From IMG/VR virus record IMGVR_UViG_3300024348_000012: a stretch of 47,348 nucleotides of DNA. One strand, written 5' to 3'. Shown here in pieces: positions 4,981 to 29,085 of this stretch (its first letter is position 1; every line of letters starts with the position of its first letter). Source of the DNA: a virus (Duplodnaviria > Heunggongvirae > Uroviricota > Caudoviricetes). Under the pieces are notes generated by a model, which saw only the letters and a list, made by a program, of their open reading frames with translations, searched no databases and had not been told where the DNA came from. The position numbers and the translations under genes are program-made.

Positions 4981-7900
4981 ATGGCTGTTATACAAAAAAC
5001 ATCGTTTGCGAAAGATTTGGATAGATTTAATGTATTAGTAAATGATGTAAATCCCAATAGTAGATATTTTAGAATAAGTGAACTACCTGATACTCTAACC
5101 GGTGGTAAGAATGCATTTTTAATTGCCGGGTCAGAAGAATTAGTTCCTGATACAAAAATACAAATTGAAATTAAAGATTCCATAGGTAATATAATTTATC
5201 ACGAACCGGGTGAAGGGATGATTAATACTAATATAAGTGGTTCTGCAAATACATCAATCATCGCGGAATATTTTGAAGGTGTATCTAAGGTTGTTGCAAT
5301 ATACATTTATCCGGAAACAACATTTGGCCCATGTACTCTCACAATATTAGGTGAGGTAGACAAATATGAAGATGGAAATGGAATATTAACACCTGTTCCT
5401 ATTGATTGGATTGGCAAATATAATGTAAAATGGCAAAAACAATTAAATGTAAATCCATCTTTAGCCAATACTACAAAGATTAGATTTTACCAAAGACCAC
5501 AAGCTAAAATTACCGAAATATTAAATCCAATTTATACAATAGTTAGTGGTAGTAAAGTTGCCAGTGCAGTTACTCAATCTTTTGCCAATATTAAACTTTC
5601 TAGACTAGAAACGTTTGCAGGGGATGTAAAACGAGTAAAAGTATTTAGAACTTCGGATGGTGATATTTCTGATTATGATTTAATACAAGATATATTAGTT
5701 GAATCTAAAGAATTATTAACAAGTTATACTTTAAGTGGTAGTGTTGTTGGGCAGACCGGTATTATAACATCGGAAACACTTAAAAATTATTGGAACACAG
5801 GTTCGTTAAATGCATATCTTACATCCAGTAAAGTTGAAAGTGGGGTTAGATTAACGGGTAGTGGTAATTTTACATATAGTTCATCTTTAGATATAAAAAG
5901 TAAAAATACTTATGAATTGGGTTTAGATGCGTTTTATTCATCGTCTATTTCAAGTAATTTGGGAATATATTTAAGTTGGGTTTCATCATCTACAACATTT
6001 ACAAGTAGTTTAGCAACTTTAACAGGAACACAACCTACAAAAAATTTATTAGATACAATTATTCCTTTTAAAATTGATAGAGATTACCCATCTGCAAGTT
6101 TATATTTTTCTCAATCACAGGGAGAATGGCATTTGGGAAATATTAGTTTAAAACTTTCACAAGATACGGCATTTTCACCAGATGAGATTTCATTTGTTAC
6201 AACAATGCCAACGGATATTAATAATCAAACTTATAATTTTAAATTTGAATTTTATGATGTAAATAATAACTATGTGCCCATTGCGGTAACACAAAGTGCA
6301 GTGTTTACAGGTGGAAATGCCGGAGCAACTGCTAAATTATTAACATTCCAAACTGATAGAAGTGCATTTAGATTTAGTACGGGTTCGTATGGTAATCCTG
6401 TAAATCAAACGGTTAAATTTTCAACACAAAAAACCAATTTAACGGGTTCAGTAACATATGCATCATCTGCATTTGATATTGGTGGAAATTATATTACACC
6501 TGCAAGTTATGCAGGTACTTATCCAGGTACTTTAACAAATGTAAGTGATAATGGAGCATTATTAACTATTGCAAATTTTAGTGGTAGTGTTGCAAGTGTA
6601 TTAGTTGGTTCAATTGTCTATACCGCATCATGTGAAAATTTTACAGAATTTGAAACCATTTATAGATTTGAGGATGGTGATAATGCACCGGGTGTTTTTG
6701 TCACTTCAAATACAAATCAATTTATTTATAAAGCTACCGACTTATCTTTAAACCCAACGGGACAAACAATAACAATAGAAGCTAAACGTAAAAATTTAGC
6801 ATCAGCTACAACCCCATTAACTGTAAATTCTGGAAGTGGAAAACCTGCATTGACATTGGTATCTACGAATGCAACAAATGGAGTAGATACCTACACATTA
6901 TCTGGAACGTCATATCCATATTCAACCGGTGAAACAATTTATTCTATTTCTGGTTCTGACCAATTTGGTAATGTTTTTTCAGATGCAATTAAAATAAGTC
7001 CTGTAAAAATATTAGATGGTTTTTCAGTTGCGGTGAGTAATGAAAACACATCATTTCCTGCACTTTCAATAGGAACGGTAGTTGGTGGATTTGCAGCAAG
7101 TAGTGGTTCTATAACAGTTAAAGTTGGTAATGAACCTATAAATTATTCATCAACATTTGTAACTAATTCATTTAGCGCAAGTATTGACACATTTGCTGGT
7201 TTAACCCCAAATACATTTAACGGAACAAATTATTCAATAAACGCTTTAAGTGCAGATAGTGGTTCTTTGACTTTATTAGTAAAATATAAAGATGGTGGGG
7301 GAACTATAATAAGTTCTTCAAAAGAAATAACGTATTCAAAAGTTAAAAAAGCAGTTCCCAATGTTGTTATATCCGCAACACCACAAGCACAATCAGTTTT
7401 GGCAAACGCAGCTGGAACCCAAACCGGAACTTTATCAAATGTTACAGTTTCCGCATTAGAAGGTACTACGAGTAGATTTACATCTATGGTTGCAACATAT
7501 TCAGGGTTTTCAACAGACCCAACGATTAGTGGTGCAACATTAACAATGACATCTGCAGTTATAACTGCTGCATCTGCAGAAGCTTCTGCAACAATAGTTG
7601 TAACTCACACCGATAGTGAAGGAACTACCGGTCAAACACAGACAATTATAGTAAGATTTACAAAAGTAAGTGTTGGACAAGATGGTAATAATGGTTCAAA
7701 TGGTACAAATGCAAAAGTAGTTGTTATAACTGCTGATAACTATGTAGTGACATATGATGGAAATGGTAGTTTATCTCCAGGCGGACAAAGTGTAATATTA
7801 ACGGCAACATCTCAAAATTTTACTACACCATATTATCAATTTACAAAAAATGGAACAGAAGTTAGAGCATATTCTACAACCGCAACATATACAATAGTAA

Positions 7901-10242
7901 CGTTACCATCATCGGGAACGTCAGATTTATATCAAGTAAATGTTAAAGAAGGAAATGTGGGTTCAGTTATTGCATTTGATAATACTGATATATTTGGTGT
8001 TAAAGCTGGTACGGATTCTTACACAGTATTTTTAACAAATGAAGCACATACATTACCGGCAGCAAATGATGGAACAGTTTCGTCTTATGTGGGTAGTGGT
8101 ACTTCTGTTATAGTTTATAAAGGTGCGACTCAATTAAATGGTGTAACCACAGGAACACCAACAACTGGTGAGTTCAAAGTAACGGCAACACTTACAACTG
8201 GAACGATTACAATTGGAGGACAAACTTCAACAGGAAATCCTGTAATTTTTGCAGACCATAGTGTTATGACAACGGATTTGGCTACAATAACATATAGTAT
8301 AAATGTTGAAAATTTAGTAACCATTACAAAACTTCAAAGTTTATCAAAATCTAAAAAAGGAGATACTGGTTCACCGGGAAATAATGGAAATGATGGTAAA
8401 AGAACAGCGACTGGTTTGTTATATTATCAACTCGCTGCAGCAACTGCTCCCGCAACACCAACTGCAACTTCATATACATTTTCAACGAATGCGTTTGCAG
8501 GTCTTACTACTAATTGGGCATTGGGTGCTCCAACATTTGCAGCAGGAAATTCAAATAAATATTGGTATTCAACATATACCGCAATAGAAACTACGGCGGG
8601 AGGAGATACGGCGGTTCCAACTTTCACTACTGTAACTCAAGCAATTGGTTTTACTGGATTGGTAACATTCACATCACCTGATAATATTAGTGATGGTAGT
8701 GGAAATACTTCGGAAATAATCCCAAAGGGTTCAATTACAAATCACATTGGTGGTGCGAATGTAACAACAATAAATGGTAGTAAAATTTCAACAGGAACTA
8801 TAACATCAACAAAATATACACTACTTGGTTCCGATACTGTTGCAAGTGGTTCGTTTACGGGTGGTGGTACTCTTTTTAATTTAGATAATAGTGGTTCAAT
8901 ACGAAGTAAAAACTTTTATATCACACCTCAAGGAGATGCAATATTTAAGGGTTCAATAACCGGTGGTACAATTGCAATTGGTTCTAACTTTTCAGTTTCT
9001 AATGCAGGTGTTGTAAATGCAACAGGAGCAACAATTACCGGAAATATAACGGCGACAAGTATAACTGCGACTACTGCAGGAAGTATTGCGGGATGGAGTG
9101 TAACGTCCACAACATTAGGAACGGGTAGTTTAAGATTAAACTCTGTAAGGCCTGCAGTAGAAATATATTCTGGTAGTTCATTGGTGGTAGATATAAGTTC
9201 TGCAACAAGTTTATCCACAATTAATGAAGGAGGTGCAAACATTGGAGCTGGTACTATTCCATATACAATAAGTGCATCAATACAACAAGAGGTAAGTGAA
9301 GAAACTACATTATTAACCGCTTATCAAGCAGATTTAGGTGCTGACCCATTGTATTCTACGGGTGGCTCAGTTGTAACATTTACACCGACTTCTACTGGTG
9401 CGTATGAAGCAACAATAGTATTGGGAGGACAGGTTAGTAATGCACTTGGTCAGTTAGAACCCAATGGTGTTAGCCCTGCAGCAGCTTTTTCATTTTTACA
9501 GGCATCTTATACAATTGGTGTTTCAATTAGACAAGGTAGTGCATCAGGAACAGAAGTTGCTAATTTTTCCTATGCACAAGATTGGAGTCAAGCCACGTCT
9601 GGTACGGGCTTTAATAGAACTTCAGAACCAAATCCTACACTAACAGGAACGATAAGTGTAACAAATGGAACAACTTATTATGTGGTTCCATATATTAGTA
9701 CCGGACAAATAGAAAGTGTAACAACTAATGGAAATCTTTCTACACATAGTGTAAGAGCCACATATAAAACACCAACAATAACAAACATTTCCGTTTCAAG
9801 AGGTATATCTAAATCGGAATTGGTTGCGGGTGGTTTTCAAGTAGTATTTAATACGGATAGGTATTTAAGAGTTGAACGTTTAAGTAATGCAGATTTCGTA
9901 AGTATTGGTGGTGGATTAACTTGTACAGGTGATGTAACTGCAAATACTTCATCTGATAAAAGATGGAAAGATAATATTATACCAATTGATAATCCAATAG
10001 AAAAAATAAAAAAATTAACAGGTAACTCTTTTGTTTGGAAGGATGGGTTTGAAGTTTATCATTCAAATAAAGGATTAGATTATGGTGTAATAGCACAAGA
10101 AGTTGAAGAAGTTATGCCTGAAATCGTTATTCAAAGAGATGGTGGTTATAAAGGAGTTAGATATGAAAAAATAATTCCATTATTGATTGAGGCAATTAAA
10201 GAACAACAAAAAGAAATTGAAGAACTAAAAAAGAATAAGTAA
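4981..10242 (+). CDS. Large tail fibre / tail spike with C-terminal intramolecular chaperone (peptidase S74)
   Basis: 1753 aa, Thr/Ser/Gly-rich beta modules, short Gly-X-Y runs (GQDGNNGSNGTN, GDTGSPGNNGNDG), C-terminal SDKRWKDNI...GVIAQEVEEV.PE...VRYEKIIPLLIEAIKEQQKEIEELK. Confidence 0.88.
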   Translation: MAVIQKTSFAKDLDRFNVLVNDVNPNSRYFRISELPDTLTGGKNAFLIAGSEELVPDTKIQIEIKDSIGNIIYHEPGEGMINTNISGSANTSIIAEYFEGVSKVVAIYIYPETTFGPCTLTILGEVDKYEDGNGILTPVPIDWIGKYNVKWQKQLNVNPSLANTTKIRFYQRPQAKITEILNPIYTIVSGSKVASAVTQSFANIKLSRLETFAGDVKRVKVFRTSDGDISDYDLIQDILVESKELLTSYTLSGSVVGQTGIITSETLKNYWNTGSLNAYLTSSKVESGVRLTGSGNFTYSSSLDIKSKNTYELGLDAFYSSSISSNLGIYLSWVSSSTTFTSSLATLTGTQPTKNLLDTIIPFKIDRDYPSASLYFSQSQGEWHLGNISLKLSQDTAFSPDEISFVTTMPTDINNQTYNFKFEFYDVNNNYVPIAVTQSAVFTGGNAGATAKLLTFQTDRSAFRFSTGSYGNPVNQTVKFSTQKTNLTGSVTYASSAFDIGGNYITPASYAGTYPGTLTNVSDNGALLTIANFSGSVASVLVGSIVYTASCENFTEFETIYRFEDGDNAPGVFVTSNTNQFIYKATDLSLNPTGQTITIEAKRKNLASATTPLTVNSGSGKPALTLVSTNATNGVDTYTLSGTSYPYSTGETIYSISGSDQFGNVFSDAIKISPVKILDGFSVAVSNENTSFPALSIGTVVGGFAASSGSITVKVGNEPINYSSTFVTNSFSASIDTFAGLTPNTFNGTNYSINALSADSGSLTLLVKYKDGGGTIISSSKEITYSKVKKAVPNVVISATPQAQSVLANAAGTQTGTLSNVTVSALEGTTSRFTSMVATYSGFSTDPTISGATLTMTSAVITAASAEASATIVVTHTDSEGTTGQTQTIIVRFTKVSVGQDGNNGSNGTNAKVVVITADNYVVTYDGNGSLSPGGQSVILTATSQNFTTPYYQFTKNGTEVRAYSTTATYTIVTLPSSGTSDLYQVNVKEGNVGSVIAFDNTDIFGVKAGTDSYTVFLTNEAHTLPAANDGTVSSYVGSGTSVIVYKGATQLNGVTTGTPTTGEFKVTATLTTGTITIGGQTSTGNPVIFADHSVMTTDLATITYSINVENLVTITKLQSLSKSKKGDTGSPGNNGNDGKRTATGLLYYQLAAATAPATPTATSYTFSTNAFAGLTTNWALGAPTFAAGNSNKYWYSTYTAIETTAGGDTAVPTFTTVTQAIGFTGLVTFTSPDNISDGSGNTSEIIPKGSITNHIGGANVTTINGSKISTGTITSTKYTLLGSDTVASGSFTGGGTLFNLDNSGSIRSKNFYITPQGDAIFKGSITGGTIAIGSNFSVSNAGVVNATGATITGNITATSITATTAGSIAGWSVTSTTLGTGSLRLNSVRPAVEIYSGSSLVVDISSATSLSTINEGGANIGAGTIPYTISASIQQEVSEETTLLTAYQADLGADPLYSTGGSVVTFTPTSTGAYEATIVLGGQVSNALGQLEPNGVSPAAAFSFLQASYTIGVSIRQGSASGTEVANFSYAQDWSQATSGTGFNRTSEPNPTLTGTISVTNGTTYYVVPYISTGQIESVTTNGNLSTHSVRATYKTPTITNISVSRGISKSELVAGGFQVVFNTDRYLRVERLSNADFVSIGGGLTCTGDVTANTSSDKRWKDNIIPIDNPIEKIKKLTGNSFVWKDGFEVYHSNKGLDYGVIAQEVEEVMPEIVIQRDGGYKGVRYEKIIPLLIEAIKEQQKEIEELKKNK

Positions 10243-11219
10243 TGCCACTTTCAGGAACAGGTCCAATTAAGATGTCACAAATAAAAACAGAATTAGGTTC
10301 TACATCCAATTCACTGAGAGCATATTCAGCTGCGGCGGGTAAAAGTGCACCTGATGTTATGTCTGAATTTTTTGGATATAGTTCGGCTACCACTGCGGCA
10401 CCAACCACTGCGGCACCAACCACTGCGGCACCAACAACTGCTGCACCAACAACTGCTGCACCTACTACGGCTGCACCAACAACTGCTGCACCAACAACTA
10501 CAACAACTACAACAACTACATTAGGGCCTTGGACTGTTACAAGATTGAGTACGGTTAGTGCATATGAAGCATGTAATGGAACGGCTGATATGACAAGTAT
10601 ATCTGTTAGTGGTGGAACAAATATAACAAACGCATCTGTAATTACATTCCTATCACAAACTGGAACATTTGAAAGTTTAGTTGGTAATGGTGAATCATTC
10701 TGGATAAATCAAAAAGTTGGGCCAACGTTTTATAGTAGAAGATATACAAGAACGGCTATTAATCAAGGAACGGCTGCGGAAAGTGCAGTTGAGTGTGATG
10801 CACCTATTACTGAAGCACCTACTACGGCAGCACCTACAACTGCAGCACCTACTACGGCAGCACCTACTACGGCAGCACCTACTACGGCAGCACCAACAAC
10901 ATATACTGTTAATATTTGGGGTAGAAAAAGTGGCCCAGCCACCGTTTTATTGTATTATGGTGTAAACGATACTAGCTGTCCTGATGGTGGTACAACTTTA
11001 TCAACTACCGGTGCACTAAAACATACAATCCAAGTTGCATATGGTGGAGTAGTATATGTAAGATGTACAAACTCAACTGATGATGCTGTTGCATTCAATG
11101 CACAAATTGCAACAAATACATATGGAGTTGTAACCTGTCCTAATCCACATTATACCGCATTTACAATAACGGAAAACACAGATATATCCGTAATTGGTGA
11201 TGCTAGAACTTTATGTTAA
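10242..11219 (+). CDS. Tail-fibre-associated (tip/adhesin-like) protein with mucin-like TTAAP repeats
   Basis: N-terminus MPLSGTGPIKMSQIKTELG...MSEFFGYS resembles the short motif of proteins encoded after phage tail fibres; two TTAAP arrays separate Cys-containing beta domains; TAATG coupling to tail fibre. Confidence 0.7.
   Translation: MPLSGTGPIKMSQIKTELGSTSNSLRAYSAAAGKSAPDVMSEFFGYSSATTAAPTTAAPTTAAPTTAAPTTAAPTTAAPTTAAPTTTTTTTTTLGPWTVTRLSTVSAYEACNGTADMTSISVSGGTNITNASVITFLSQTGTFESLVGNGESFWINQKVGPTFYSRRYTRTAINQGTAAESAVECDAPITEAPTTAAPTTAAPTTAAPTTAAPTTAAPTTYTVNIWGRKSGPATVLLYYGVNDTSCPDGGTTLSTTGALKHTIQVAYGGVVYVRCTNSTDDAVAFNAQIATNTYGVVTCPNPHYTAFTITENTDISVIGDARTLC
10389..10520 (+). repeat. 15-bp coding tandem repeat (TTAAP)x7 followed by Thr x9
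   Basis: ACCACTGCGGCACCA-type units read directly in the sequence. Confidence 0.95.
10821..10895 (+). repeat. 15-bp coding tandem repeat (TTAAP)x5
   Basis: ACTACGGCAGCACCT-type units read directly in the sequence. Confidence 0.95.
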
Positions 11220-11237
11220 AAATAACAAAATAGTTAT

Positions 11238-12212
11238 ATGAAAAATTTAAGATTTATTTGTGCACAACCTTCCACTATGTATTACGCATGGCAGGTAGAA
11301 GTAATGATAAATAATTTTATAGAAATGGGTGTAAATCCAAATTTTATTGATGTTGTATCTACAAAAAAAAGTGGGTTTATATCCGATGAATGGTTAAAAC
11401 TATGTGAACATTTTAATAATGTAAGATTTTTCTTTTACGAAGATTTGAGGGAAAATAAAAATTATATTTCTTCTATAAGACCCAATATCTTAAAACAACA
11501 TTTTAAAAAAAATCCGTATCTTAAAGATGAAATTATATTTTATCATGATTGTGATATTTTATTAACAAAACCAATTGATGAATGGATATGTTGTGCAATG
11601 TATTCGGACGATAATTGGTATGGTTCGGATTGTCGTTGGTATATTGGTCACGATTATATATTATCAAAAGGAAATGATATACTTGCAAAAATGTGTGATA
11701 TCATAGGAATAAAAAAAGAAGTTATAAAAGAAAATGAACTTAATTCAATTGGTGCACAATATTTGATGAAAGGAATTACTCATTATTTTTGGGATAAAGT
11801 AGAAAAAGATTCAGAAATTTTATTTAAAGAAATTACAGAATTAAATGATGAAAAAATAATTGAAGATAGGAGAACAATGCCACCCGGTGAAGAAAGAACA
11901 CCATACCACCCATTGCAGATATGGTGTGCAGATATGTGGGCAGTTTTATGGAATGGTTGGAAGATGGGATATAAAACAATTCCAAGTTCAAAATTTAATT
12001 TTACTTGGGCAACTGGAACAAAAACAGAATTTGAAAAAAATAATATATTTCATAATGCCGGTATAGTTAATGGTGATATAAATAGATTTTACAAAGGTAA
12101 ATATACTGATAAACTTCCATATGGTGATGAATTAAACATTATAGAAGATAGTGCTAGTTTAGAATATTGGAAATATATACAATCGGTTGGTAAAAAAAGT
12201 GTTTTAATATAA
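11238..12212 (+). CDS. Peptide O-glycosyltransferase-like protein, GT-A fold, resembling plant HPAT (GT95) / peptidyl-serine galactosyltransferase (GT96)
   Basis: Five colinear motifs: YYAWQVEVM, YISSIRPNILKQH, FYHDCDILLTKP (DxD), IGAQYLM, IWCADMWAVLWNGWKMG, matching recalled HPAT motifs YNTWQCRVM, YVVLNRPWAFVQW, LMSEPDHIIVKP, IGNSPVI, GWVLEMYAY...HG. Confidence 0.7.
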   Translation: MKNLRFICAQPSTMYYAWQVEVMINNFIEMGVNPNFIDVVSTKKSGFISDEWLKLCEHFNNVRFFFYEDLRENKNYISSIRPNILKQHFKKNPYLKDEIIFYHDCDILLTKPIDEWICCAMYSDDNWYGSDCRWYIGHDYILSKGNDILAKMCDIIGIKKEVIKENELNSIGAQYLMKGITHYFWDKVEKDSEILFKEITELNDEKIIEDRRTMPPGEERTPYHPLQIWCADMWAVLWNGWKMGYKTIPSSKFNFTWATGTKTEFEKNNIFHNAGIVNGDINRFYKGKYTDKLPYGDELNIIEDSASLEYWKYIQSVGKKSVLI

Positions 12213-12220: not shown

Positions 12221-13204
12221 ATGACAGTATTCATTACGACAGGTTACGGAAAAAATGTTATAGGTGGCGCAGACTTATGGTGCAATAACTTTATAGAAAA
12301 TGTTTTACCACTACTCAAAGAAGATTATAAAATAATCATTGATGGTAGACCTTTGATTAAAGAATTTGGTGCAATCTACACTTACGAAAACGAAAAAGAA
12401 GTTGATAGAATATTAAAAGAATGTGATAAGATTATTTTCTTACACCATTCTTATAAACCAAATCCAATTATTAAAAATTATTTACACAAAACCTATCTCA
12501 CATTTGTCCATGCTTTTATTCCTGATATGTTGGGATTAAATAATGATTATGAAAACATAATGACAAAAGTAGATTGGGTATGGCAAAAAAAAATATTAGA
12601 TAATTCCGACAATATAGTTTGGATTGGATATGAAGATGATACAATACACAAAGAATATCCAAAAACAAAAACTATTACAAATTATTATGAGTGGAAACAT
12701 AACAAACCATTTACAGGAATTGTAAGTAATAAAATTGGATATGCAGCAAGATGTGAAACCAGAAAGAATGCACATTATTTAGATTACATTCCGTCAATTA
12801 TATTTTCAAACAAATATGATTACAAAAGAATGTTAGAAGGTTCAAAAACCAATTCTGACTATCATAGATTTATAGAATTTGACTATCATTTTCATAACAA
12901 ATTTTTTGAAGGAAACTTTCAAATATTTCATGGATGTTATACAAAAGAACCATTTGGATATGCAATATTTGATGCAGTGGATAATGGTAAAGTTCCTATT
13001 ATACATACGGATTGGATGAAACATATTGATTACAAATATAGAGCAAATAGTAAAGGAGAATTTCATTCAAGATATTTAGAATTACAAGAAAATAGTTTTG
13101 AAGAAGTAAATAAAGAGTTTTGTAAATTAAGAGAAGGGTTAAATGAATACACTAACAGAAAAAAATGGGTTACACAAATATGCAGTTACTTAATGAAAAA
13201 TTAA
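12221..13204 (+). CDS. GT-B glycosyltransferase (GT4-like)
   Basis: N-terminal IGGADLW and C-terminal EPFGYAIFDAVDNGKVPII (variant of EPFGLVxLEAMAxGxPVI). Confidence 0.75.
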   Translation: MTVFITTGYGKNVIGGADLWCNNFIENVLPLLKEDYKIIIDGRPLIKEFGAIYTYENEKEVDRILKECDKIIFLHHSYKPNPIIKNYLHKTYLTFVHAFIPDMLGLNNDYENIMTKVDWVWQKKILDNSDNIVWIGYEDDTIHKEYPKTKTITNYYEWKHNKPFTGIVSNKIGYAARCETRKNAHYLDYIPSIIFSNKYDYKRMLEGSKTNSDYHRFIEFDYHFHNKFFEGNFQIFHGCYTKEPFGYAIFDAVDNGKVPIIHTDWMKHIDYKYRANSKGEFHSRYLELQENSFEEVNKEFCKLREGLNEYTNRKKWVTQICSYLMKN

Positions 13205-13938
13205 TAAAAGAATATCTTACCAATAATCATAAAATTAATGAAGATGGTAATGTTATTTTAGAACCTGTAAAGTATCGTTGGACACATGGTGCTACTGATT
13301 TACACTTAGGGGATGGCCTTTTGGTATACTCTTTCATTCAATTTATTAGAGCAAAGGTATGTGTCTGTATCGGGTCAGGAGGTGGATTTATACCTCGTCT
13401 TATGACACAAGCTAGAATGGATTTACATTCCCAAAATATATTTGAAGGAAACAATCAACCCGAATGGGGAGACATTGGAACTACTATTATTGTTGATGCT
13501 GCAAATGGTATTGGTGGATTTACTGATTGGACAGAAGAGAATAGTTTTTTAAGACAACATTTTTCTCCACAAGTTATTTTAGAAACATCAGAAAAAGCTT
13601 TTTATGATTATTTTGTAAGACAAGATATTAAAATAGACTACTTACACATTGACGGAGACCATTCATATGAGGGTGTTAAAAAAGATTTTGAATTATATTC
13701 TACAATTATGGCTGAAAATGGGATTATTACCATTCACGACATAGACCAAAATTATCATGATACATTTGTAGTAACTGAAAATGCCAAAGAAGATTTTGTT
13801 CCGTTTGATGGACCAGGCAAATTTATTAAAGAATTAGAAGAAGATAAAAAATGGAATTTGGTAAGTTTAAAAAATTTTCGTATGTTTGATAAAAAAGTTA
13901 CAAGCACTGGTTTAGCATTACTAACTAAAAAAGCTTAA
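13165..13938 (+). CDS. Class I SAM methyltransferase (Methyltransf_24-like, glycan O-methyltransferase type)
   Basis: VCIGSGGGF motif I, IDYLHIDGDHSYEGVKKDF, GIITIHD; true start may be ATG 13180. Confidence 0.82.
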   Translation: MGYTNMQLLNEKLIKEYLTNNHKINEDGNVILEPVKYRWTHGATDLHLGDGLLVYSFIQFIRAKVCVCIGSGGGFIPRLMTQARMDLHSQNIFEGNNQPEWGDIGTTIIVDAANGIGGFTDWTEENSFLRQHFSPQVILETSEKAFYDYFVRQDIKIDYLHIDGDHSYEGVKKDFELYSTIMAENGIITIHDIDQNYHDTFVVTENAKEDFVPFDGPGKFIKELEEDKKWNLVSLKNFRMFDKKVTSTGLALLTKKA

Positions 13939-13946: not shown

Positions 13947-14792
13947 ATGAATAAAAAAACTAGATTAGTTACAGTAACAGGTAGTAGAACTAACACTTTG
14001 TGGCATATGTTAAATCATTACAGACACATCGTAGATGAAATTTATGTTGTAGTTTATGAGTGGGAAGGAGTATCTACTTTAAAAGATGTGGGAGAAATTC
14101 TTGTAAATTTTCCAACTGCAAAGGTAGTAAGAGTTGCAAAAAAAGAAAAATTTAATTGGGAATATGTAACACAATTATATAATGAAACTAAATTAATGCA
14201 CCCGGATGACTGGTGGGTGGTTGCAGATGATGATGAACTTCACATATATCCAATGCCGTTACCATTTATGATTGAAGATTGTGAAGATAATGGGTGGGAT
14301 ATTGTTAGAGGAGGATTTATAGATAGAATTGGAGAAGGGGGTATTTTTCCTGAAATCAAACCATATAAAAATATATTTAAACAATTTCCATTAGCAGGAT
14401 TTTTTAGATACCCATTATCAGGAGCATGTCCAAATAAAGTATGTGTAATGAAAGGATATATAGAAATAACATCTGGCCAACATTATGCAAAAATAAATGG
14501 TGAAACATTATGGGGCCCGCAAATTGATAATAAAAATATTGCACCTGTTGATAAATATTACGTGCAAGTCCATCATTTTAAATGGGATAGTACCTGTGTG
14601 GAAAGAATTAAAGCAGTTGCTGATACTAAAAAGGAATATGCATTTTCAAAAGAATATTTAAAAATGTATCAAGCAATTAGAAGTAATAATTTTGAAATTG
14701 ATATAAATGATACAGAGTTTATGATTGAAAATATTGGTGAAAATGAATATACTCAATGGGTTGAACTTTTTCAAAAAATAACTTTAATATAA
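13947..14792 (+). CDS. GT-A glycosyltransferase (GT2/GT92-like)
   Basis: WWVVADDDEL DxD motif, late VHHFKW motif, N-terminal LWHMLNHY typical of the Glyco_tranf_2_4 group. Confidence 0.75.
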   Translation: MNKKTRLVTVTGSRTNTLWHMLNHYRHIVDEIYVVVYEWEGVSTLKDVGEILVNFPTAKVVRVAKKEKFNWEYVTQLYNETKLMHPDDWWVVADDDELHIYPMPLPFMIEDCEDNGWDIVRGGFIDRIGEGGIFPEIKPYKNIFKQFPLAGFFRYPLSGACPNKVCVMKGYIEITSGQHYAKINGETLWGPQIDNKNIAPVDKYYVQVHHFKWDSTCVERIKAVADTKKEYAFSKEYLKMYQAIRSNNFEIDINDTEFMIENIGENEYTQWVELFQKITLI

Positions 14793-14852: not shown

Positions 14853-15062
14853 ATGGCTACAGCTAAAAAAACAGAAACAAACACACAACAAGACGATTTA
14901 CTTTTATTAGAACAAAGAAAAGTAAAAGCATTGGAAAAAATTGCAAATTCTATGGATGCGCTCACTATTTGGTTTGAAGAAATAGATAAAGAAGAGTGGA
15001 GTCAAAGAATACAATACTATTTATCAGAGTTTCATACAAAAGTCGTAAAAGATAGTGAATAA
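14853..15062 (+). CDS. Small helical hypothetical protein
   Basis: 69-aa ORF after a promoter, overlapping the next GTG start. Confidence 0.65.
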   Translation: MATAKKTETNTQQDDLLLLEQRKVKALEKIANSMDALTIWFEEIDKEEWSQRIQYYLSEFHTKVVKDSE

Positions 15063-16467
15063 AGTAGGAATTATAGTTCCGTACCGAAGTAGATATGACC
15101 ATATTCATATATTCAAAAAAGTAATTACTGCTTATCTAAAATCAAAAAATATAGATTATGAATTAATAATCGTTGAACAAGATGATGCCCTATTGTTTAA
15201 TAGAGGAATGTTGTTAAATATTGGATTTAAATATGCTAAAAAATTAAAATGTAATTATGTAGTTTTTCACGACGTTGATATGTTACCGGTTGATGTAGAT
15301 TATAGTTATTCCGACATACCTTTACATTTAGCTACAAATTTTATATCAGAAGAAGGTGAAAAAGAGAGAGTTATATTTGATACATATTTTGGTGGAGTAA
15401 CACTATTTCCTATGAAAGATTTTGAAGAAATTGATGGATATTCTAACAAATATTGGGGTTGGGGTTATGAAGACGACGACTTACTATTTAGATGCAAAGA
15501 AAAATTTATAAAATTAGATACTCTTAAAATTAAAAATTTAGGAAAAAAAGGTAAAGCATTAAAATTCAATGGAATAACTTCACATGTAAAATCTAATAAT
15601 GTATTGGATTTTAATTCTAGTTTTTCAATTTTTATTTCTTTTATGCCGGATGAGTTGGAATTAAATCATAAAAAGAAATCAGATGAATTTGCAGTATTTA
15701 GTATACCTGGATATGATTTTGCAATTTGTTATACTTCATTTCAAAGATACAATTTTTGTGCATTTGATAGTGAATTAAATGCATTATATGTAAACTCTAA
15801 TATAAAACCAAATTATAAAACAAATATGGTAATATCATTAGATGCTATGGATAAAATAATTAAAGTTTATCAAGACGGAGAATTTATTGGTGAAACAAAA
15901 CCTTATAAAAGATTATACAAATATAGAATGGAACCAAATTTTTATTTAGGAGTTGGTAAACCTGATAGAGAAATAATACCTAATTTTTTTAAAGGTTACA
16001 TTGATTCATTTGCTATTTATGATTCACAATTGTCTGATAGAGAAATAAAAGAAATATCAACAACAGATGCCGATTTAAGAACATTCAAATCAGGTTTAAA
16101 CTTAAAAACATATTATGATGCAAATCACATAAAACATTATAAATTAAAAGATTTATCTAAAAATGATAATGAAGGAGAGATAATTGGATGTGAGATTGTT
16201 GATTTAGATTGTGAAGATGAAATTGAAATAAAAATACCACATAGAAAAAAATCATTATTTCAATCACTTAAACATGAAGAAAATGGATTTTTGGGAAATA
16301 AATGGAAAAACGATGCAACAAGATGGAATCAATTAAGATTTCAAAATGAAGTGTATAGGCATGTATCTTTAATAAATAGAGACGGACTTTCTACGTTAAA
16401 ATATAAAACACATGGAATTGTTAGTGATAAAGAAAATAAAATAACACAAATAACAGTTGGGATATAA
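15055..16467 (+). CDS. GT7 (beta-1,4-galactosyltransferase-like) with an inserted LamG/ConA-like lectin domain
   Basis: IIVPYR, FNRGMLLNIGF, VFHDVDMLP, YFGGV, NKYWGWGYEDDDL; then LamG-like block (LKFNG, FYLGVG, FKGYIDSFAIYD); then GT7 tail SLKH...DGLSTLKY...ITQITVGI. Confidence 0.85.
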   Translation: MNKVGIIVPYRSRYDHIHIFKKVITAYLKSKNIDYELIIVEQDDALLFNRGMLLNIGFKYAKKLKCNYVVFHDVDMLPVDVDYSYSDIPLHLATNFISEEGEKERVIFDTYFGGVTLFPMKDFEEIDGYSNKYWGWGYEDDDLLFRCKEKFIKLDTLKIKNLGKKGKALKFNGITSHVKSNNVLDFNSSFSIFISFMPDELELNHKKKSDEFAVFSIPGYDFAICYTSFQRYNFCAFDSELNALYVNSNIKPNYKTNMVISLDAMDKIIKVYQDGEFIGETKPYKRLYKYRMEPNFYLGVGKPDREIIPNFFKGYIDSFAIYDSQLSDREIKEISTTDADLRTFKSGLNLKTYYDANHIKHYKLKDLSKNDNEGEIIGCEIVDLDCEDEIEIKIPHRKKSLFQSLKHEENGFLGNKWKNDATRWNQLRFQNEVYRHVSLINRDGLSTLKYKTHGIVSDKENKITQITVGI

Positions 16468-17873
16468 TGAAATTAGGAGTATGCGTACCATATAGAAATA
16501 GAGAAGAACATATGAATCAGTTTGTTCCTCATGTTACAAAATTCTTAGAAGAAAGAGGAATTGAACATACTATCTATCTTGCTCACCAGTGCGACGATAA
16601 ACTTTTTAATAGAGGTTTAATGAAGAACATTGCAGCTAAATACGCATTTGATGATGGGTGTGATTATATTGTATGGCACGATATTGATATGGTACCTGAA
16701 GATGAGAGTTGTGATTATTCATTTCCAAAAGACAATCCACAACATATCGCAGTTCGTATTTCACAATCGGATTATCAATTAAAATATGAAGAATACTTTG
16801 GTGGTGCTGTTTTATTTTCAAAAGAACAAGTAGAAAGAACCAATGGTTACTCAAATGACTATTGGGATTGGGGAATGGAAGATGATGATTTATTTTGGAG
16901 ATGTGTGATGGAGGGTTACGCAGAAAAAACAAATTTAGATTATGATAAAGAAATGTATGTATCATATTTTAATGGTATAAATTCTAAAATTCAATTTAGA
17001 CCCAGTAGAGAGCAAAGAGATTGTCTTTCTAATTCACATACGATTTCAGTTTTGGTAAAAGCTGACCAACAAATAGAAAAAGTTCCAATTTGGTTAATTG
17101 GAGATGAAGAAAGAAAGTTTGTAGAGTATCCCATATTTAGAAAACCAGGATACGATTGGGGATTATCTTTCAACAATAGTAGAGCATATACAATGCAACT
17201 TTGGGATAGGACTAAACAACATTTATACCAATGGATTAAAAGATATGAAAACCAATGGAGTTGGATTACAATGGCCGTAGATTCTGAAAATAATAAAATT
17301 CATTTTTATTTAAATGGTAGAGAAAGTGACGCAAGATTAGGTACTGGTACACAATCACCATTAAGTTTTTCAGAACCATTAAAGAAATATGGAATGGAAC
17401 CATTTAATGTTGGATATTCCAAATCACCTGTTGAAGAATTTTTTAAAGGCGGTATTGCTAGCATACAAATGTGGGATAGATGCTTAACATCCGATGAGAT
17501 AAAAAATCTACATAAAGAAATGCCTGAAGATAATTTGATATTAGATATATTCACTATGAATTTAGAATTTGGTGAAATGGAAAACATTGAATTAAAAAAA
17601 GAAAAAATAGAAATACCAAATACAATTTTACCTTATAGAAGAAATGGTAAATTTTTATGTCTACCACATCAAACGGAAGGATTGATTAATGTCGGTGGCA
17701 TAGATAAGTGGGCAAAGGGAGAAACAACTGCAAAAAACGAAAGAAGATATGTGTTACAGATGCAGCAAGGGAATATAGATTATAAAAATGACGGAATCAA
17801 TAGTATGAATTATGAATTTATTTCAATTGATACTATTTATAATAGACACAAAATGATAAATGTAAAAGTATAG
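16467..17873 (+). CDS. Second GT7 with inserted LamG/ConA-like domain
   Basis: VCVPYRNR, FNRGLMKN, VWHDIDMVP, YFGGAV, NDYWDWGMEDDDL; LamG block (YFNG, IHFYLNG, FKGGIASIQMWDRCLT); tail CLPH...DGINSMNY. Confidence 0.85.
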   Translation: MKLGVCVPYRNREEHMNQFVPHVTKFLEERGIEHTIYLAHQCDDKLFNRGLMKNIAAKYAFDDGCDYIVWHDIDMVPEDESCDYSFPKDNPQHIAVRISQSDYQLKYEEYFGGAVLFSKEQVERTNGYSNDYWDWGMEDDDLFWRCVMEGYAEKTNLDYDKEMYVSYFNGINSKIQFRPSREQRDCLSNSHTISVLVKADQQIEKVPIWLIGDEERKFVEYPIFRKPGYDWGLSFNNSRAYTMQLWDRTKQHLYQWIKRYENQWSWITMAVDSENNKIHFYLNGRESDARLGTGTQSPLSFSEPLKKYGMEPFNVGYSKSPVEEFFKGGIASIQMWDRCLTSDEIKNLHKEMPEDNLILDIFTMNLEFGEMENIELKKEKIEIPNTILPYRRNGKFLCLPHQTEGLINVGGIDKWAKGETTAKNERRYVLQMQQGNIDYKNDGINSMNYEFISIDTIYNRHKMINVKV

Positions 17874-17875
17874 TT

Positions 17876-19276
17876 ATGGCATATAAAAAACCTCTATATG
17901 AGGAAGTAAAAAATACATTAGATAATGTAGGAAAAGGAATGTGTTTAGCAAAATGGACACAAGTTACAACACATCTCCACACAGGACATAATCATAGTTG
18001 TCACCATCCAAACACACATAAAGTATCAGAAGCGGAGATTGCAAGAAATCCATCCGCACTTCATAATACTCTTTTCAAAAAACAAAAAAGAAAAGAAATG
18101 TTACAAGGTGCAAGACCTACCGAATGTGATTATTGTTGGAATGTTGAAGATAATTCTGATTTATATTCGGATAGAATATTTAAATCTTCCGAAGATTGGA
18201 GTTGGCCATTAGCAGACCAAATTATTAATTCAAATTGGAGAGACGATTTTAATCCACGTTATGTTGAGGTTGCATTTAGTAATGCTTGTAATTTTAAATG
18301 TTCATATTGTTCACCTACATTTTCTACACAATGGATGGAAGAAATTCAACAATATGGGGGATATGATACAACTGATAAATTTAACGACTTAAAACATTTG
18401 GCAGCTGAACAAAAGATGCCAATTCCACATAAAGATTATAATCCATATGTAGATGCATTTTGGAAATGGTGGCCGGATTTATATAGAGATTTACATACTT
18501 TTAGAATTACCGGTGGTGAACCTTTAATGTCAAAGGATACATGGAAGGTGTTAGATTATATAATTGATGAAAAAAATCCAAATAAAAATTTAGATTTTTC
18601 TATTAATTCTAACTTAGGTGTACCAGATGAATTGATTACAAAATTAATTGAAAAATTAAAAAGAATCACCGAAGAAGATAAGGTAAAAGGATTTGTATTA
18701 TTTACATCTTGTGATGCATGGGGTGCACAAGCTGAGTATATTAGACATGGTTTGGAGTTTTCTAGATTTTGGAATAATGTAAATAGAATCCTAAGAGAAG
18801 TTCCAAGAATTACAATTACATTTATGGTAACATATAATATGTTATCGGTATTTAGTTTTGATAAATTAATTAAAGGTGTATATGATTTGAAAAGAGAATA
18901 TGCAGGAGATGATAGATATTGGTTATCACCAGTATTATTAGATACATCTTATTTAAGGCATCCAAAACATCAAACTGTTCAAATACTTCCACATCAATTT
19001 AAACAAAATATTTTTGACCAAGCTCAACTTGCATTTTATTACGGAATTCCGTATTATTCAAAAGGATATGTTGGATATTCTGATTTGGAAATTCAAAAAT
19101 TAAAAAGAACATATGATTGGGCAATTTCTCCAATTAAAGATGATGAGTTACACAAAGCAAGATATAATTTTTATAAATTTTTTAGTGAACACGATAAAAG
19201 AAGAGGAACAAATTTTTGTAAAACTTATCCAGAATTAGAAGAATTTTATAATTTCACAAAAACAATTCAGTTATAA
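17876..19276 (+). CDS. Radical SAM protein with extra Cys-rich (SPASM/twitch-like) N-terminal region
   Basis: CNFKCSYC (CxxxCxxC), ITGGEPL, N-terminal CLAKW...SCHH...CDYCW. Confidence 0.88.
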   Translation: MAYKKPLYEEVKNTLDNVGKGMCLAKWTQVTTHLHTGHNHSCHHPNTHKVSEAEIARNPSALHNTLFKKQKRKEMLQGARPTECDYCWNVEDNSDLYSDRIFKSSEDWSWPLADQIINSNWRDDFNPRYVEVAFSNACNFKCSYCSPTFSTQWMEEIQQYGGYDTTDKFNDLKHLAAEQKMPIPHKDYNPYVDAFWKWWPDLYRDLHTFRITGGEPLMSKDTWKVLDYIIDEKNPNKNLDFSINSNLGVPDELITKLIEKLKRITEEDKVKGFVLFTSCDAWGAQAEYIRHGLEFSRFWNNVNRILREVPRITITFMVTYNMLSVFSFDKLIKGVYDLKREYAGDDRYWLSPVLLDTSYLRHPKHQTVQILPHQFKQNIFDQAQLAFYYGIPYYSKGYVGYSDLEIQKLKRTYDWAISPIKDDELHKARYNFYKFFSEHDKRRGTNFCKTYPELEEFYNFTKTIQL

Positions 19277-19277
19277 T

Positions 19278-20012
19278 ATGTACAAAGTAAAATATAAAGA
19301 ACCATTAATTTTAGCAGATTTACCATGGTGGCCCCACAACGCATATGGTATCATTGATACGGCTGCGTTTTATGTAATGAATGAATCTAGTTGGACAATA
19401 AGTGGAACTTGGAAAAAAACAGATGACGATTCTAAAATAGACGAAATGTCAGGTATTTTTATGAGAAGAGGATTGCATACTGGTATTGTATATAGAAAGC
19501 CGGATATGGTAATGTTGAATTTTTGGTACATTGAAAACGAAGAAGAAAAGTATGCAGATAAAATTATCTTTTATAAAGATGAATCATTTTGGAATGAACC
19601 ACATTTATTTACATTAAATTGGAATGGTGAAACTTTCACTTACGAATTTTGGGTAGACGATGAATTAGTATATTCCGAAACATTACCAGGTAAATTAAGA
19701 GATTATGTAAATGCACCATATTTTATAGGAGCAGCTGATACCAAAGGTGATTTTAGTTGGGCACAAGAATGTTATACCGATTTTTTTATAGTATCTAATA
19801 AAAAATTAGATGGTTCAGTAATAAACGATTTTAGAAAAAATATAGATTCATATGTTATCAAAAACAAACATGGATTTAGATGTTTAAATAAAAACGAATT
19901 AGGATTATTATGTTGTTTTGATTTTAAAACCGAAACAGATTATAAATTTTGGGATATGACCGGAAATAATAATCATTTAATGAAACATTGTAAAGATTTA
20001 GAAAAACTTTAA
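19278..20012 (+). CDS. Stand-alone LamG/ConA-like lectin-domain protein
   Basis: SWTISGTWK, FTLNWNG, FWVDDELV, YFIGA, FWDMTGNNNHL pattern similar to the GT7 inserts. Confidence 0.55.
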   Translation: MYKVKYKEPLILADLPWWPHNAYGIIDTAAFYVMNESSWTISGTWKKTDDDSKIDEMSGIFMRRGLHTGIVYRKPDMVMLNFWYIENEEEKYADKIIFYKDESFWNEPHLFTLNWNGETFTYEFWVDDELVYSETLPGKLRDYVNAPYFIGAADTKGDFSWAQECYTDFFIVSNKKLDGSVINDFRKNIDSYVIKNKHGFRCLNKNELGLLCCFDFKTETDYKFWDMTGNNNHLMKHCKDLEKL

Positions 20013-20015
20013 ATA

Positions 20016-20987: not shown

Positions 20988-20988
20988 T

Positions 20989-21534
20989 ATGAGCAATAAA
21001 TGGGATGAGTTTCAAATTACTCCATCTAAAAAATTTGGTTACGAAGTACCGACATATACTCCATCAATTTATAGAGAATATAGAGGTGAGATATTTACAA
21101 CTTTCCATTCAGAAGAACATCCTGTAATGACACAAATACATTATGATAAAAGTGAGATTAGTATTCATGGTAGATTCTCAAAATCATACAAAGGTGTATT
21201 AAGAGGATTACATTACGATAATAAGACTTGGAAGTTAGTACAAGCAGTAGTTGGAGATATTTACCTAATTGTTTTGGATATGAGAAAAAATAGTCCTACT
21301 TTTGGAGAGTGGGAATCTTTTATGATAACCGAAAAAGATAGAAATCAAGTATTAGTTCCACCTGGATTTGCAAATGGACACTACGCATTAACCGATTGTA
21401 TGTTTCATTATAACTTATTTTACAAAGATGGTTATGTTGATGCAGACGAGCAAGGTGTAGTTAAGTGGAACGACTCTGAATATCAAATGGAATGGCCAAC
21501 AAATAATCCAATATTACAAAAAAGAGATAGATAA
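20989..21534 (+). CDS. rmlC: dTDP-4-dehydrorhamnose 3,5-epimerase family (cupin)
   Basis: YREYRG, GVLRGLHY, DMRKNSPTFGEW, VPPGFANG, VKWND. Confidence 0.88.
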   Translation: MSNKWDEFQITPSKKFGYEVPTYTPSIYREYRGEIFTTFHSEEHPVMTQIHYDKSEISIHGRFSKSYKGVLRGLHYDNKTWKLVQAVVGDIYLIVLDMRKNSPTFGEWESFMITEKDRNQVLVPPGFANGHYALTDCMFHYNLFYKDGYVDADEQGVVKWNDSEYQMEWPTNNPILQKRDR

Positions 21535-29081: not shown

Positions 29082-29085
29082 AAAT

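What the first reader, a model, noticed from the sequence alone, without database searches (positions are those of the whole stretch)
10242..12212. Plant-type peptide O-glycosyltransferase placed directly behind a mucin-like TTAAP tail protein: candidate phage tail-tip O-glycosylation system
Seen: the gene coupled to the tail fibre carries 12 TTAAP units plus a 9-Thr run, and the next gene (11238..12212) is a DxD GT-A protein. Five of its motifs are colinear with recalled plant hydroxyproline O-arabinosyltransferase (GT95) motifs: WQxxVM, YxxxxRPxxxxQ, (D/E)xDxxxxKP, IG, Wxx(D/E)M(W/Y)A...G. Established: GT95/GT96 enzymes transfer sugar onto Hyp or Ser of Pro/Thr/Ser-rich repeats in extensins and related plant proteins. 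Inference: this enzyme starts glycans on Thr or Hyp of the TTAAP linkers, and downstream GTs extend them, giving a glycosylated stalk for stiffness, protease/antibody shielding or host-glycan mimicry. Virion glycosylation is known in some actinophages and giant viruses; I do not know of a GT95/96-type pathway described in phages.
Basis: partly seen in the sequence, partly recalled or inferred. Interest (0 to 1): 0.92.

Follow-up and report, generated by a model that had tools for sequence, protein, structure and literature searches.

The report
Phage sugar-transferase beside threonine-repeat fibre protein
An uncultured tailed phage encodes, right after its tail-fibre gene, a beads-on-a-string protein with Thr-Thr-Ala-Ala-Pro linkers and then an unannotated enzyme shaped most like the plant enzymes that put the first sugar on cell-wall proteins; the same enzyme and threonine-tract pairing recurs in many unrelated phages, so these phages probably sugar-coat their particles, though no sugar has been measured.

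Summary
ORF 10242-11219 has 7+5 TTAAP units and a T9 run. ORF 11238-12212 is a soluble GT-A enzyme with an invariant DxD.

It has no Pfam match and belongs to the unannotated phage family phrog_4417. Its model (pLDDT 95.8) matches plant and algal GT96 (SGT1) and GT95 (HPAT) enzymes best, in three structure libraries. The Pfam HPAT model does not detect it, so it is a look-alike by fold, not a sequence member.

The link to threonine tracts is strong:
- A same-strand Thr-rich ORF lies within 3 kb upstream in 46 of 64 viral loci, and within 3 kb downstream in 0 of 62.
- All seven cultured phage lineages I checked have a poly-Thr tail on the capsid, tail-tube or small protein just upstream.
- Four phages with orthologous tail-tube proteins but no transferase also lack the tail.

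Most likely it starts O-glycans on Thr of virion proteins in the host cytoplasm (about 0.65). Hydroxyproline is unlikely (about 0.07). The 22-kb sugar island downstream is specific to this phage.

Virion glycosylation is known in mycobacteriophages, but with unrelated enzymes, so this is a new variant of a known kind. No glycan has been measured. This scan reached the same reading earlier on at least 12 other genomes.

The parts
4981..10242 (+). Tail-fibre gene (1753 aa) with a C-terminal Peptidase_S74 intramolecular chaperone domain. Its stop codon overlaps the start of the next gene.
   Evidence: Pfam PF13884 E 1.4e-15; PHROG tail fibre and baseplate families; TAATG overlap
10242..11219 (+). 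Candidate acceptor, a 325-aa beads-on-a-string protein. It has a conserved 47-aa N-terminal module, Thr-rich linker 1, a small Cys-containing domain, Thr-rich linker 2 and a beta-rich C-terminal domain.
   Evidence: Only about 10 close homologues exist. The repeat number varies between them (4-7 and 3-8 units), and domains are inserted or swapped.
10392..10520 (+). Linker 1: TTAAP x7 plus nine Thr (15-nt and 9-nt tandem arrays).
10800..10894 (+). Linker 2: TTAAP x5 (15-nt tandem array).
11238..12212 (+). Soluble GT-A glycosyltransferase of family phrog_4417. It has D104-x-D106 and a C-terminal H272-x-x-G275...K286 motif. Its fold is closest to GT95/GT96 peptide O-glycosyltransferases. Proposed initiating Thr O-glycosyltransferase.
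12221..13204 (+). Second putative glycosyltransferase (GT-B-like). This is only a language-model lead.
   Evidence: No Pfam match. Atlas feature score 0.96 to viral Glyco_transf_4, Glycos_transf_1 and AGT clusters.
13165..13938 (+). Methyltransf_24 (TylF-like) methyltransferase. The same family is fused to Che8 gp108 and to members of the transferase family.
13947..14792 (+). Weak GT2-like protein.
   Evidence: Pfam E 0.017-0.019, below the curated cut-off
15055..17873 (+). Two tandem GT7 (B4GalT-like) transferases, each with a Laminin_G_3 domain.
17876..34110 (+). Sugar-nucleotide and tailoring island. It holds two radical SAM enzymes, three SDR epimerase/dehydratases, RmlC, a split TPP E1-like enzyme, two 2OG-Fe(II) oxygenases (one fused to an SDR), a methyltransferase and unknowns. 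It is specific to this phage.
   Evidence: It is absent beside the homologue in relatives.

Best explanation
ORF 11238-12212 is a cytoplasmic, metal-dependent GT-A glycosyltransferase, probably retaining, of a large unannotated phage family (phrog_4417). I propose that it transfers the first sugar from an NDP-sugar onto Thr (and Ser) hydroxyls in the low-complexity Thr-rich tracts of phage structural proteins before or during assembly. In this window the target would be the two TTAAP/poly-Thr linkers of the fibre-associated protein encoded just upstream. The other transferases, methyltransferases and sugar-nucleotide enzymes of the 22-kb island downstream would then elongate and decorate the glycan. 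The result would be a mucin-like, stiffened and shielded stalk. Shown here: the fold, the catalytic motifs, the gene order and the cross-phage association. Inferred: the acceptor residue, the donor sugar, the anomeric outcome, the role of the island, and that the protein is part of the virion.
For: Fold and motifs:
- The AF2 model has pLDDT 95.8 and a GT-A fold.
- The best solved matches are retaining GT-A enzymes: WbbM, glycogenin, UGGT, LgtC and XXT1.
- The best Swiss-Prot models are SGT1 and HPAT, covering residues 2-320. They align to the plant catalytic domains only, so there is no membrane anchor. AFDB clusters and the ESM Atlas agree.
- D104, D106, H272, G275 and K286 are invariant or nearly so.

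Links to glycan assembly:
- Family members are fused to GT7C/GT2, GT6, GT2, Gly_transf_sug, radical SAM-SPASM and Methyltransf_24 domains.

Association with Thr tracts:
- A same-strand Thr-rich ORF lies within 3 kb upstream in 46 of 64 IMG/VR loci, and within 3 kb downstream in 0 of 62 (Fisher p 6e-20).
- After clustering the transferases at 70% identity the counts are 21 of 29 against 0 of 32. At 60% they are 8 of 10 against 0 of 11.
- All seven cultured lineages checked have a poly-Thr tract on the ORF immediately upstream: phiFL1A MTP, Iacchus, MA9V-3, phiCTP1 gp18, PT94, Planchet and TPWB06.
- The upstream proteins include major tail protein and virion structural families.
- MTP orthologues in four phages without the transferase lack the poly-Thr tail.
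- phiFL1A has no other annotated transferase.
Against: - No glycan has been measured on any of these proteins, and all the evidence is comparative.
- 16 of 64 loci have no Thr tract in the adjacent genes.
- The Pfam HPAT model does not recognise the family, so the analogy to peptide O-glycosyltransferases rests on fold ranking. The same clan also contains LPS and polysaccharide transferases.
- The TTAAP protein has no detectable virion-protein family, and its model is poor (pLDDT 48).
- The island genes are not conserved beside the transferase, so their link to it is only adjacency.
Confidence: 0.65

Rival explanations
1. The transferase acts on a non-protein acceptor, such as a host envelope glycopolymer (teichoic acid, LPS, capsule) or phage DNA. 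Its position next to Thr-rich proteins would then reflect only shared late expression or a common insertion hot spot.
For: The structural neighbours include LPS glucosyltransferases (WaaO, RfaJ-type), LgtC and polysaccharide synthases. Phage transferases are classically known for modifying DNA and O-antigen (reviewed in PMC12619734).
Against: The upstream-only association is directional: 46 of 64 against 0 of 62. The poly-Thr tail and the transferase are lost together at an orthologous tail-tube locus. The gene lies inside head and tail modules of both lytic and temperate phages. The best fold matches are peptide O-glycosyltransferases, ahead of the others by 2-3 orders of magnitude in E-value.
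Confidence: 0.12
2. The family extends a glycan that another enzyme starts, such as a host O-glycosyltransferase or the GT-B-like neighbour 12221-13204. This would resemble the GT8-type enzymes that elongate GlcNAc on serine-rich repeat adhesins.
For: S. pneumoniae GlyD appears among the fold matches. The window has a second putative transferase immediately downstream. Many family members are fused to a second transferase domain.
Against: In phiFL1A, and in the neighbourhoods of phiCTP1, PT94, TPWB06 and Planchet, it is the only transferase seen. Its closest fold relatives are initiating enzymes.
Confidence: 0.1
3. An extensin-like route operates. The P4H-like 2OG oxygenases of the island hydroxylate the Pro of TTAAP, and the HPAT-like enzyme glycosylates the hydroxyproline.
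For: Two 2OG-FeII_Oxy_3 proteins lie in the island. A 2OG-FeII_Oxy_3 gene directly follows the transferase in L069 and probably its near-twin L068; only L069 was scanned. Pro makes up 9% of tract residues and occurs in nearly every tract of the uncultured loci. HPAT is among the nearest folds.
Against: The phiFL1A MTP and PT94 tails contain no Pro. Thr makes up 63% of tract residues. No homologue of the window's 2OG proteins lies near the transferase in 80 loci. One of the 2OG domains is fused to a sugar-nucleotide SDR. The stand-alone 2OG protein (28371-29057) has no sequence match to any solved structure, prolyl hydroxylases included; for the fused one the listed matches all fall on its SDR part.
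Confidence: 0.07

Closest known systems
Plant and algal peptidyl-serine alpha-galactosyltransferase SGT1/SERGT1 (CAZy GT96) and hydroxyproline O-arabinosyltransferases HPAT1-3, RDN1/2, PLENTY, NOD3 (CAZy GT95; Pfam PF23452)
   Same: They are the best structural matches over the whole catalytic domain: TM by query 0.52-0.66, E 7.6e-11 to 4.8e-8. Algal HPAT-like clusters give TM 0.54-0.73. From established knowledge of these families, they are GT-A enzymes with DxD that start O-glycans on Ser/Hyp-rich low-complexity repeats. The phage enzyme likewise has a GT-A fold and an invariant D104-x-D106.
   Different: Sequence identity is only 11-15%, and the Pfam HPAT model does not detect the family. 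The phage enzyme has no membrane anchor, so it is cytoplasmic rather than Golgi-located. The likely acceptor is Thr. The donor sugar is unknown.
Mycobacteriophage virion glycosylation (Che8, Corndog, Myrna; Freeman et al. 2023, Cell Host Microbe, as summarised in PMC12363180 and PMC12619734)
   Same: Phage-encoded transferases modify the C-terminal regions of capsid and tail-tube subunits. phiFL1A shows the same layout, with poly-Thr tails on the putative capsid protein gp45 and on the MTP gp50. A Methyltransf_24 accessory enzyme is shared.
   Different: Che8 gp108-110 are GT2+Methyltransf_24, GT2-like and GT25 proteins. hhalign probability of gp109 and gp110 against this family is 0.1%. None of the 77 phage records holding this family is a Mycobacterium phage. 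In the window the tracts are internal linkers of a fibre-associated protein, not C-terminal tags.
GT8-clan retaining GT-A enzymes (glycogenin, LgtC, WaaO/RfaJ, UGGT catalytic domain, WbbM C-domain)
   Same: They are the best solved-structure matches (TM by query 0.43-0.50). The DxD plus C-terminal HxxG...K arrangement resembles the GT8 metal and diphosphate site; that comparison is from my own knowledge of LgtC and glycogenin.
   Different: There is no match to the Pfam Glyco_transf_8 model. They score lower than the GT95/96 models.

Membership tests
PHROG phrog_4417 (unknown function) | Full-length match to the family profile | tested here: met
   E 9.3e-62, residues 5-317 on profile positions 2-291 of 293
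CAZy GT95 / Pfam PF23452 (HPAT) | Sequence match to the PF23452 model above its 23.9-bit cut-off | tested here: not met
   No hit for the window protein at E <= 1. Only 1 of 41 family members hits, at E 0.23. There is no match at the homologue's position in 5 phage records. The Atlas reports PF23452 on about 10% of members of two sibling viral clusters.
CAZy GT95 / GT96 | GT-A catalytic domain structurally closest to HPAT and SGT1 | tested here: met
   The top 9 Swiss-Prot AFDB hits are all GT96 or GT95. HPAT-like domain clusters dominate AFDB-cluster ranks 5-26. Atlas TM is 0.70-0.73.
CAZy GT95 / GT96 | DxD metal-binding motif | tested here: met
   H103-D104-C-D106. D106 is invariant and D104 is at least 90% conserved in 41 sequences.
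CAZy GT95 / GT96 | Type II membrane anchor and secretory-pathway location | tested here: not met
   The model starts with beta-strand 4-10. The alignment begins at query residue 2 against HPAT1 residue 68.
CAZy GT95 / GT96 | Transfer of L-Araf to Hyp, or of Gal to Ser, of repeat proteins | not testable with these tools
   This needs an enzyme assay or glycoproteomics.
Mycobacteriophage virion glycosylation system (Che8-type) | Transferases homologous to Che8 gp108-110 | tested here: not met
   hhalign probability of gp109 and gp110 is 0.1%. By Pfam, the three Che8 proteins are GT2+MT24, GT2 and GT25.
Mycobacteriophage virion glycosylation system (Che8-type) | Acceptor tags on capsid and tail-tube subunits | tested here: inconclusive
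   Poly-Thr tails are present on capsid or tail-tube proteins of cultured carriers and absent from orthologues without the transferase. Glycosylation itself was not observed. In the window the tracts lie in a fibre-associated protein.
CAZy GT8 / Pfam PF01501 | Sequence match to Glyco_transf_8 | tested here: not met
   No hit. There is only structural similarity, TM 0.43-0.50.

The most novel reading that the evidence does not exclude
The phage reproduces the plant extensin route. Its P4H-like 2OG oxygenases would hydroxylate the Pro of each TTAAP unit, and the HPAT-like enzyme would glycosylate the hydroxyproline, alongside or instead of Thr. That would be the first Hyp-O-glycosylation pathway outside eukaryotes, and it would place the origin or a sister lineage of GT95/GT96 among phages.
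Probability: 0.07. Interest if true: 0.9.

Novelty: new variant of a known kind. Interest (0 to 1): 0.72.

Why it matters
In mycobacteriophages, virion glycosylation shields particles from antibodies (Freeman 2023, as cited in PMC12363180). If this family does the same, there is a simple sequence signature for predicting sugar-coated virions: a phrog_4417 gene directly after a poly-Thr-tailed capsid, tail-tube or fibre protein. The signature occurs in phages of Enterococcus, Staphylococcus, Lactobacillus, Lactococcus, Clostridium, Arcanobacterium and Chryseobacterium, and in hundreds of uncultured aquatic phages. That bears on phage-therapy pharmacology, on interpreting cryo-EM and mass data for virions, and on host recognition. 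It would also provide a soluble bacterial-cytoplasm enzyme for tagging proteins with O-glycans on short Thr tags. It gives plant GT95/GT96 enzymes a large viral sister group by fold. In this phage, the 22-kb island of rare-sugar enzymes placed directly behind the pair suggests an unusually elaborate glycan.

Tried and rejected
- Megablast of 16 kb of the window against GenBank phages found nothing.
- The window's own assembly is not held, and the nearest record (G001) is a 19-kb fragment without the gene.
- A profile search of PDB sequences gave only TALE-repeat hits, which come from summed weak repeat matches and are spurious.
- Direct Pfam HPAT searches were negative.
- The AF2 model of the TTAAP protein was too poor to search with (pLDDT 48). 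The Atlas has no usable hit for it.
- BLAST of its two globular domains against the ORFs of 80 related loci found nothing. Only the N-terminal 47 aa recur, in L018.
- The 2OG oxygenase 28371-29057 has no sequence match to any solved structure.
- The promoter and terminator scan showed no enrichment over shuffles.
- The Freeman 2023 paper is not held, so it is cited through secondary papers.
- Seven literature searches found no paper on this family or on HPAT-like enzymes in phages.
- I did not run complex prediction, because an enzyme-substrate pair is a poor case for it.
- I rejected the idea that the downstream island is a conserved part of the system.
Full report
**What is in the sequence**

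The window is part of a large tailed phage with about 30% G+C. It encodes T7-type endonuclease I, a primase, an SbcCD-like nuclease, a 1753-aa tail fibre with a Peptidase_S74 C-terminus, a large terminase, a T4-type portal and a prohead protease.

ORF 10242-11219 starts on the last base of the fibre gene's stop codon (TAATG). It encodes 325 aa with this layout:
- a 47-aa N-terminal module;
- TTAAP x7 followed by nine Thr;
- a small Cys-containing domain;
- TTAAP x5;
- a beta-rich C-terminal domain.

ORF 11238-12212 follows after 18 nt.

**The enzyme**

The 324-aa protein has no Pfam match. It matches PHROG family phrog_4417 (function unknown) at E 9e-62. Its relatives:
- 2617 proteins pass E <= 1e-3 in the word-indexed search; none of the 120 listed carries a functional name or a Pfam domain.
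- 838 cluster representatives pass E <= 1e-3 in the exhaustive search.
- 77 GenBank phage records hold a homologue at 30-38% identity. Their hosts are Lactobacillus, Enterococcus, Staphylococcus, Lactococcus, Clostridium, Arcanobacterium and Chryseobacterium.

An AF2 model from a 41-sequence alignment is very confident, with pLDDT 95.8 and pTM 0.92.
- Against the PDB, the best matches are retaining GT-A enzymes: WbbM, glycogenin, the UGGT catalytic domain, LgtC and XXT1, at TM 0.43-0.50.
- Against AlphaFold models of Swiss-Prot, the first nine hits are Arabidopsis and Chlamydomonas peptidyl-serine alpha-galactosyltransferase (GT96) and seven hydroxyproline O-arabinosyltransferases (GT95). E runs from 7.6e-11 to 4.8e-8, and TM by query is 0.62-0.66 for the HPATs, over residues 2-320. 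The next families start at E 6e-7.
- After three true family members, AFDB fold clusters are dominated by 'Hydroxyproline O-arabinosyltransferase-like domain' proteins of algae and protists.
- The ESM Atlas gives TM 0.70-0.73 to eukaryotic HPAT-domain clusters. It also matches a bacterial PqqD+HPAT cluster.

It does not survive at the level of sequence-family membership. The Pfam HPAT model (PF23452) hits 1 of 41 members, at E 0.23. It finds nothing at the homologue's position in five phage records.

The plant enzymes align only from about residue 60 onward. The phage protein is therefore the bare catalytic domain without a membrane anchor, which makes it a cytoplasmic enzyme.

The conserved residues are D104-x-D106, H272-x-x-G275 and K286. 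From my own knowledge of LgtC and glycogenin, these resemble the metal and diphosphate site of GT8-clan retaining enzymes. I could not superpose coordinates to check this.

**Is it tied to Thr-rich proteins?**

This is the key question, and I tested it in four ways.

1. Uncultured relatives. I analysed 80 IMG/VR loci whose homologue is 48-62% identical. I defined a tract as at least 7 Thr, and at least 18 residues of T/S/P/A, in a 20-residue window.
   - A same-strand ORF with such a tract lies within 3 kb upstream in 46 of 64 informative loci.
   - One lies within 3 kb downstream in 0 of 62.
   - No minus-strand ORF has one (Fisher p 6e-20).
   - In two further loci the adjacent 1654-aa gene carries the tract just beyond 3 kb.
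   - Because the loci are related, I collapsed them by transferase identity. At 70% the counts are 21 of 29 against 0 of 32 clusters. At 60% they are 8 of 10 against 0 of 11.

2. Seven cultured phage lineages. All seven have a poly-Thr tract on the ORF immediately upstream:
   - phiFL1A: the major tail protein gp50 ends in a 28-residue Thr/Ser tail, and the putative capsid protein gp45 also has one.
   - Lactobacillus phage Iacchus: a 130-aa protein with TTTTTSTTTVKP repeats.
   - Chryseobacterium phage MA9V-3: two proteins with long Thr/Ser runs.
   - Clostridium phage phiCTP1: gp18.
   - Staphylococcus phage PT94: a 110-aa protein with a T14 run.
   - Enterococcus phage Planchet and Arcanobacterium phage TPWB06: poly-Thr ORFs at the ends of the capsid gene and the tail-tube gene respectively.

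3. Identity of the upstream proteins. Where they can be recognised, they are major tail protein (phrog_1407) or virion structural protein (phrog_14478).

4. A natural control. Orthologues of phiFL1A gp50 (50-60% identical) occur in Streptococcus prophages Javan47 and Javan505 and in Lactobacillus phages Bassarid and phiJL-1. In these the tail-tube gene is followed directly by the chaperone genes. They have no transferase, and the protein ends just after the shared PGETTGDY motif with no poly-Thr tail.

The tail and the enzyme therefore come and go together at one locus.

Further support:
- Family members are fused to second transferase domains (GT7C/GT2, GT6, GT2, Gly_transf_sug), to radical SAM-SPASM and to Methyltransf_24.
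- phiFL1A has no other annotated transferase in its 38.8 kb. This argues that the family starts the glycan rather than extends it.

**Thr or hydroxyproline?**

Thr makes up 63% of tract residues and Pro 9%. Pro is present in nearly every tract of the uncultured loci, so it cannot be excluded there. The tails of phiFL1A gp50 and the PT94 protein contain no Pro at all.

The evidence on the oxygenases is mixed:
- The window's two 2OG-FeII_Oxy_3 proteins lie 16-17 kb downstream.
- One is fused to a sugar-nucleotide SDR.
- The stand-alone one has no sequence match to any solved structure, prolyl hydroxylases included; for the fused one the listed matches all fall on its SDR part.
- Neither has a homologue near the transferase in 80 loci.
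- In L069, however, a 2OG-FeII_Oxy_3 gene directly follows the transferase. L068 has the same ORF layout but was not scanned.

I put the Hyp route at about 7%.

**The island**

Genes 12221-34110 encode:
- a GT-B-like protein, known only from a language-model lead;
- Methyltransf_24;
- a weak GT2-like protein;
- two GT7+LamG transferases;
- two radical SAM enzymes;
- three SDRs and RmlC;
- a split TPP E1-like enzyme;
- the two oxygenases;
- a further methyltransferase.

None of these occurs beside the homologue in the 80 related loci. In the nearest relatives (L004, L005, L006, L018; TerL up to 95% identical) the order is fibre, Thr-rich protein, transferase. Then, in L004, L006 and L018, comes a radical SAM-SPASM gene; L005 was not scanned. 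The homologue of 34248-36923 and the terminase module follow.

The conserved core is therefore the acceptor-transferase pair. The island is a variable, phage-specific cassette inserted behind it. That it elaborates the same glycan is plausible, but the only evidence is adjacency.

**The acceptor protein**

It has only about ten close homologues. In these the unit numbers vary (4-7 in linker 1, 3-8 in linker 2), and a domain is inserted or replaced. This is typical of length-variable linkers between shuffled beads.

Its 47-aa N-terminus recurs in L018 in the same position, after an 8.8-kb fibre ORF. That fits an anchoring module. 'Tail tip' is not shown.

**Comparison with what is known**

Phage virion glycosylation is established for mycobacteriophages Che8, Corndog and Myrna, on the C-termini of capsid and tail-tube subunits, where it shields against antibodies. 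This is Freeman et al. 2023, read through PMC12363180 and PMC12619734, because the paper itself is not held.

The Che8 enzymes are GT2+Methyltransf_24, GT2-like and GT25 proteins. gp109 and gp110 give hhalign probability 0.1% against this family.

Seven full-text searches found no paper on phrog_4417, on poly-Thr tags in phages as glycosylation sites, or on HPAT-like enzymes in phages. The library is incomplete, so this is not proof of absence.

I class the finding as a new variant of a known kind. The logic is the same: a phage-encoded enzyme sugar-coats its own structural proteins. The initiating enzyme family, the tag and the host range differ.

**Earlier notes of this scan**

After reaching this reading I found that follow-up agents had come to the same conclusion on at least 12 other genomes. 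Those are not independent evidence.

**Verdict**

The gene pair is real. The enzyme is a GT-A transferase whose nearest structural relatives are plant peptide O-glycosyltransferases, and its association with Thr-rich virion proteins is strong and directional.
- That it O-glycosylates those tracts: about 0.65, inferred.
- A non-protein acceptor: about 0.12.
- An extender role: about 0.10.
- The Hyp route: about 0.07.

No biochemical observation exists yet.

Noticed in passing
L086:3742-3885 (Enterococcus phage Planchet) and L087:3720-3926 (Arcanobacterium phage TPWB06): Alternative-frame ORFs that are almost pure Thr/Ser overlap the 3' end of the major capsid gene (Planchet) and of the major tail gene (TPWB06). 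Each runs up to the transferase homologue. They could be programmed frameshifts that give a fraction of subunits a long poly-Thr extension.
   Followed up: no
window 12221-34110: The 22-kb island of transferases and rare-sugar enzymes is absent from the nearest relatives. In L004, L006 and L018 the transferase is instead followed by a radical SAM-SPASM gene and then the homologue of 34248-36923. The island looks like a variable cassette inserted at this spot.
   Followed up: partly
P0127; L004:10885-12000, L006:11998-13032, L018:10956-11984: Radical SAM-SPASM enzymes, typical peptide maturases, are fused to or directly follow the transferase in several relatives. This hints at a second modification of the same protein or glycan.
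   Followed up: no
L069:10926-11504 (L068 has the same ORF layout): A 2OG-FeII_Oxy_3 (P4H-like) gene directly follows the transferase in L069. The upstream tract in L068 is TP/AP-rich (TPAPTPAP...). This is the only comparative hint for a proline-hydroxylation step.
   Followed up: partly
window 10242-11219 and homologues P0271-P0280: Near-identical homologues differ in TTAAP copy number (4-7 and 3-8 units), and by insertion or replacement of a whole small domain between the linkers.
   Followed up: yes
window 12221-13204: This unannotated 327-aa protein has no Pfam hit. Its language-model features are closest to viral GT4, GT1 and DNA alpha-glucosyltransferase clusters (score 0.96). It is probably a GT-B transferase.
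   Followed up: partly
window 29086-30717: A 2OG-Fe(II) oxygenase domain (residues about 119-209) is fused to an SDR sugar-nucleotide epimerase/reductase (220-530). This suggests hydroxylation of a sugar nucleotide rather than of a protein.
   Followed up: partly
ESM Atlas cluster: A bacterial cluster, mainly Pseudomonadota, has PqqD on 95% of its members and an HPAT domain on 55%. PqqD is a peptide-recognition element of RiPP pathways. The combination may be a peptide-glycosylating RiPP enzyme related to this fold.
   Followed up: no
L088:4172-5347 (Che8 gp108); window 13165-13938; P0139; L069:11808-14009: Methyltransf_24 recurs with virion-glycosylation transferases in unrelated systems: fused to GT2 in Che8, to GT1 in L069 and to this family in P0139. 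It may be a common sugar O-methylation step.
   Followed up: partly
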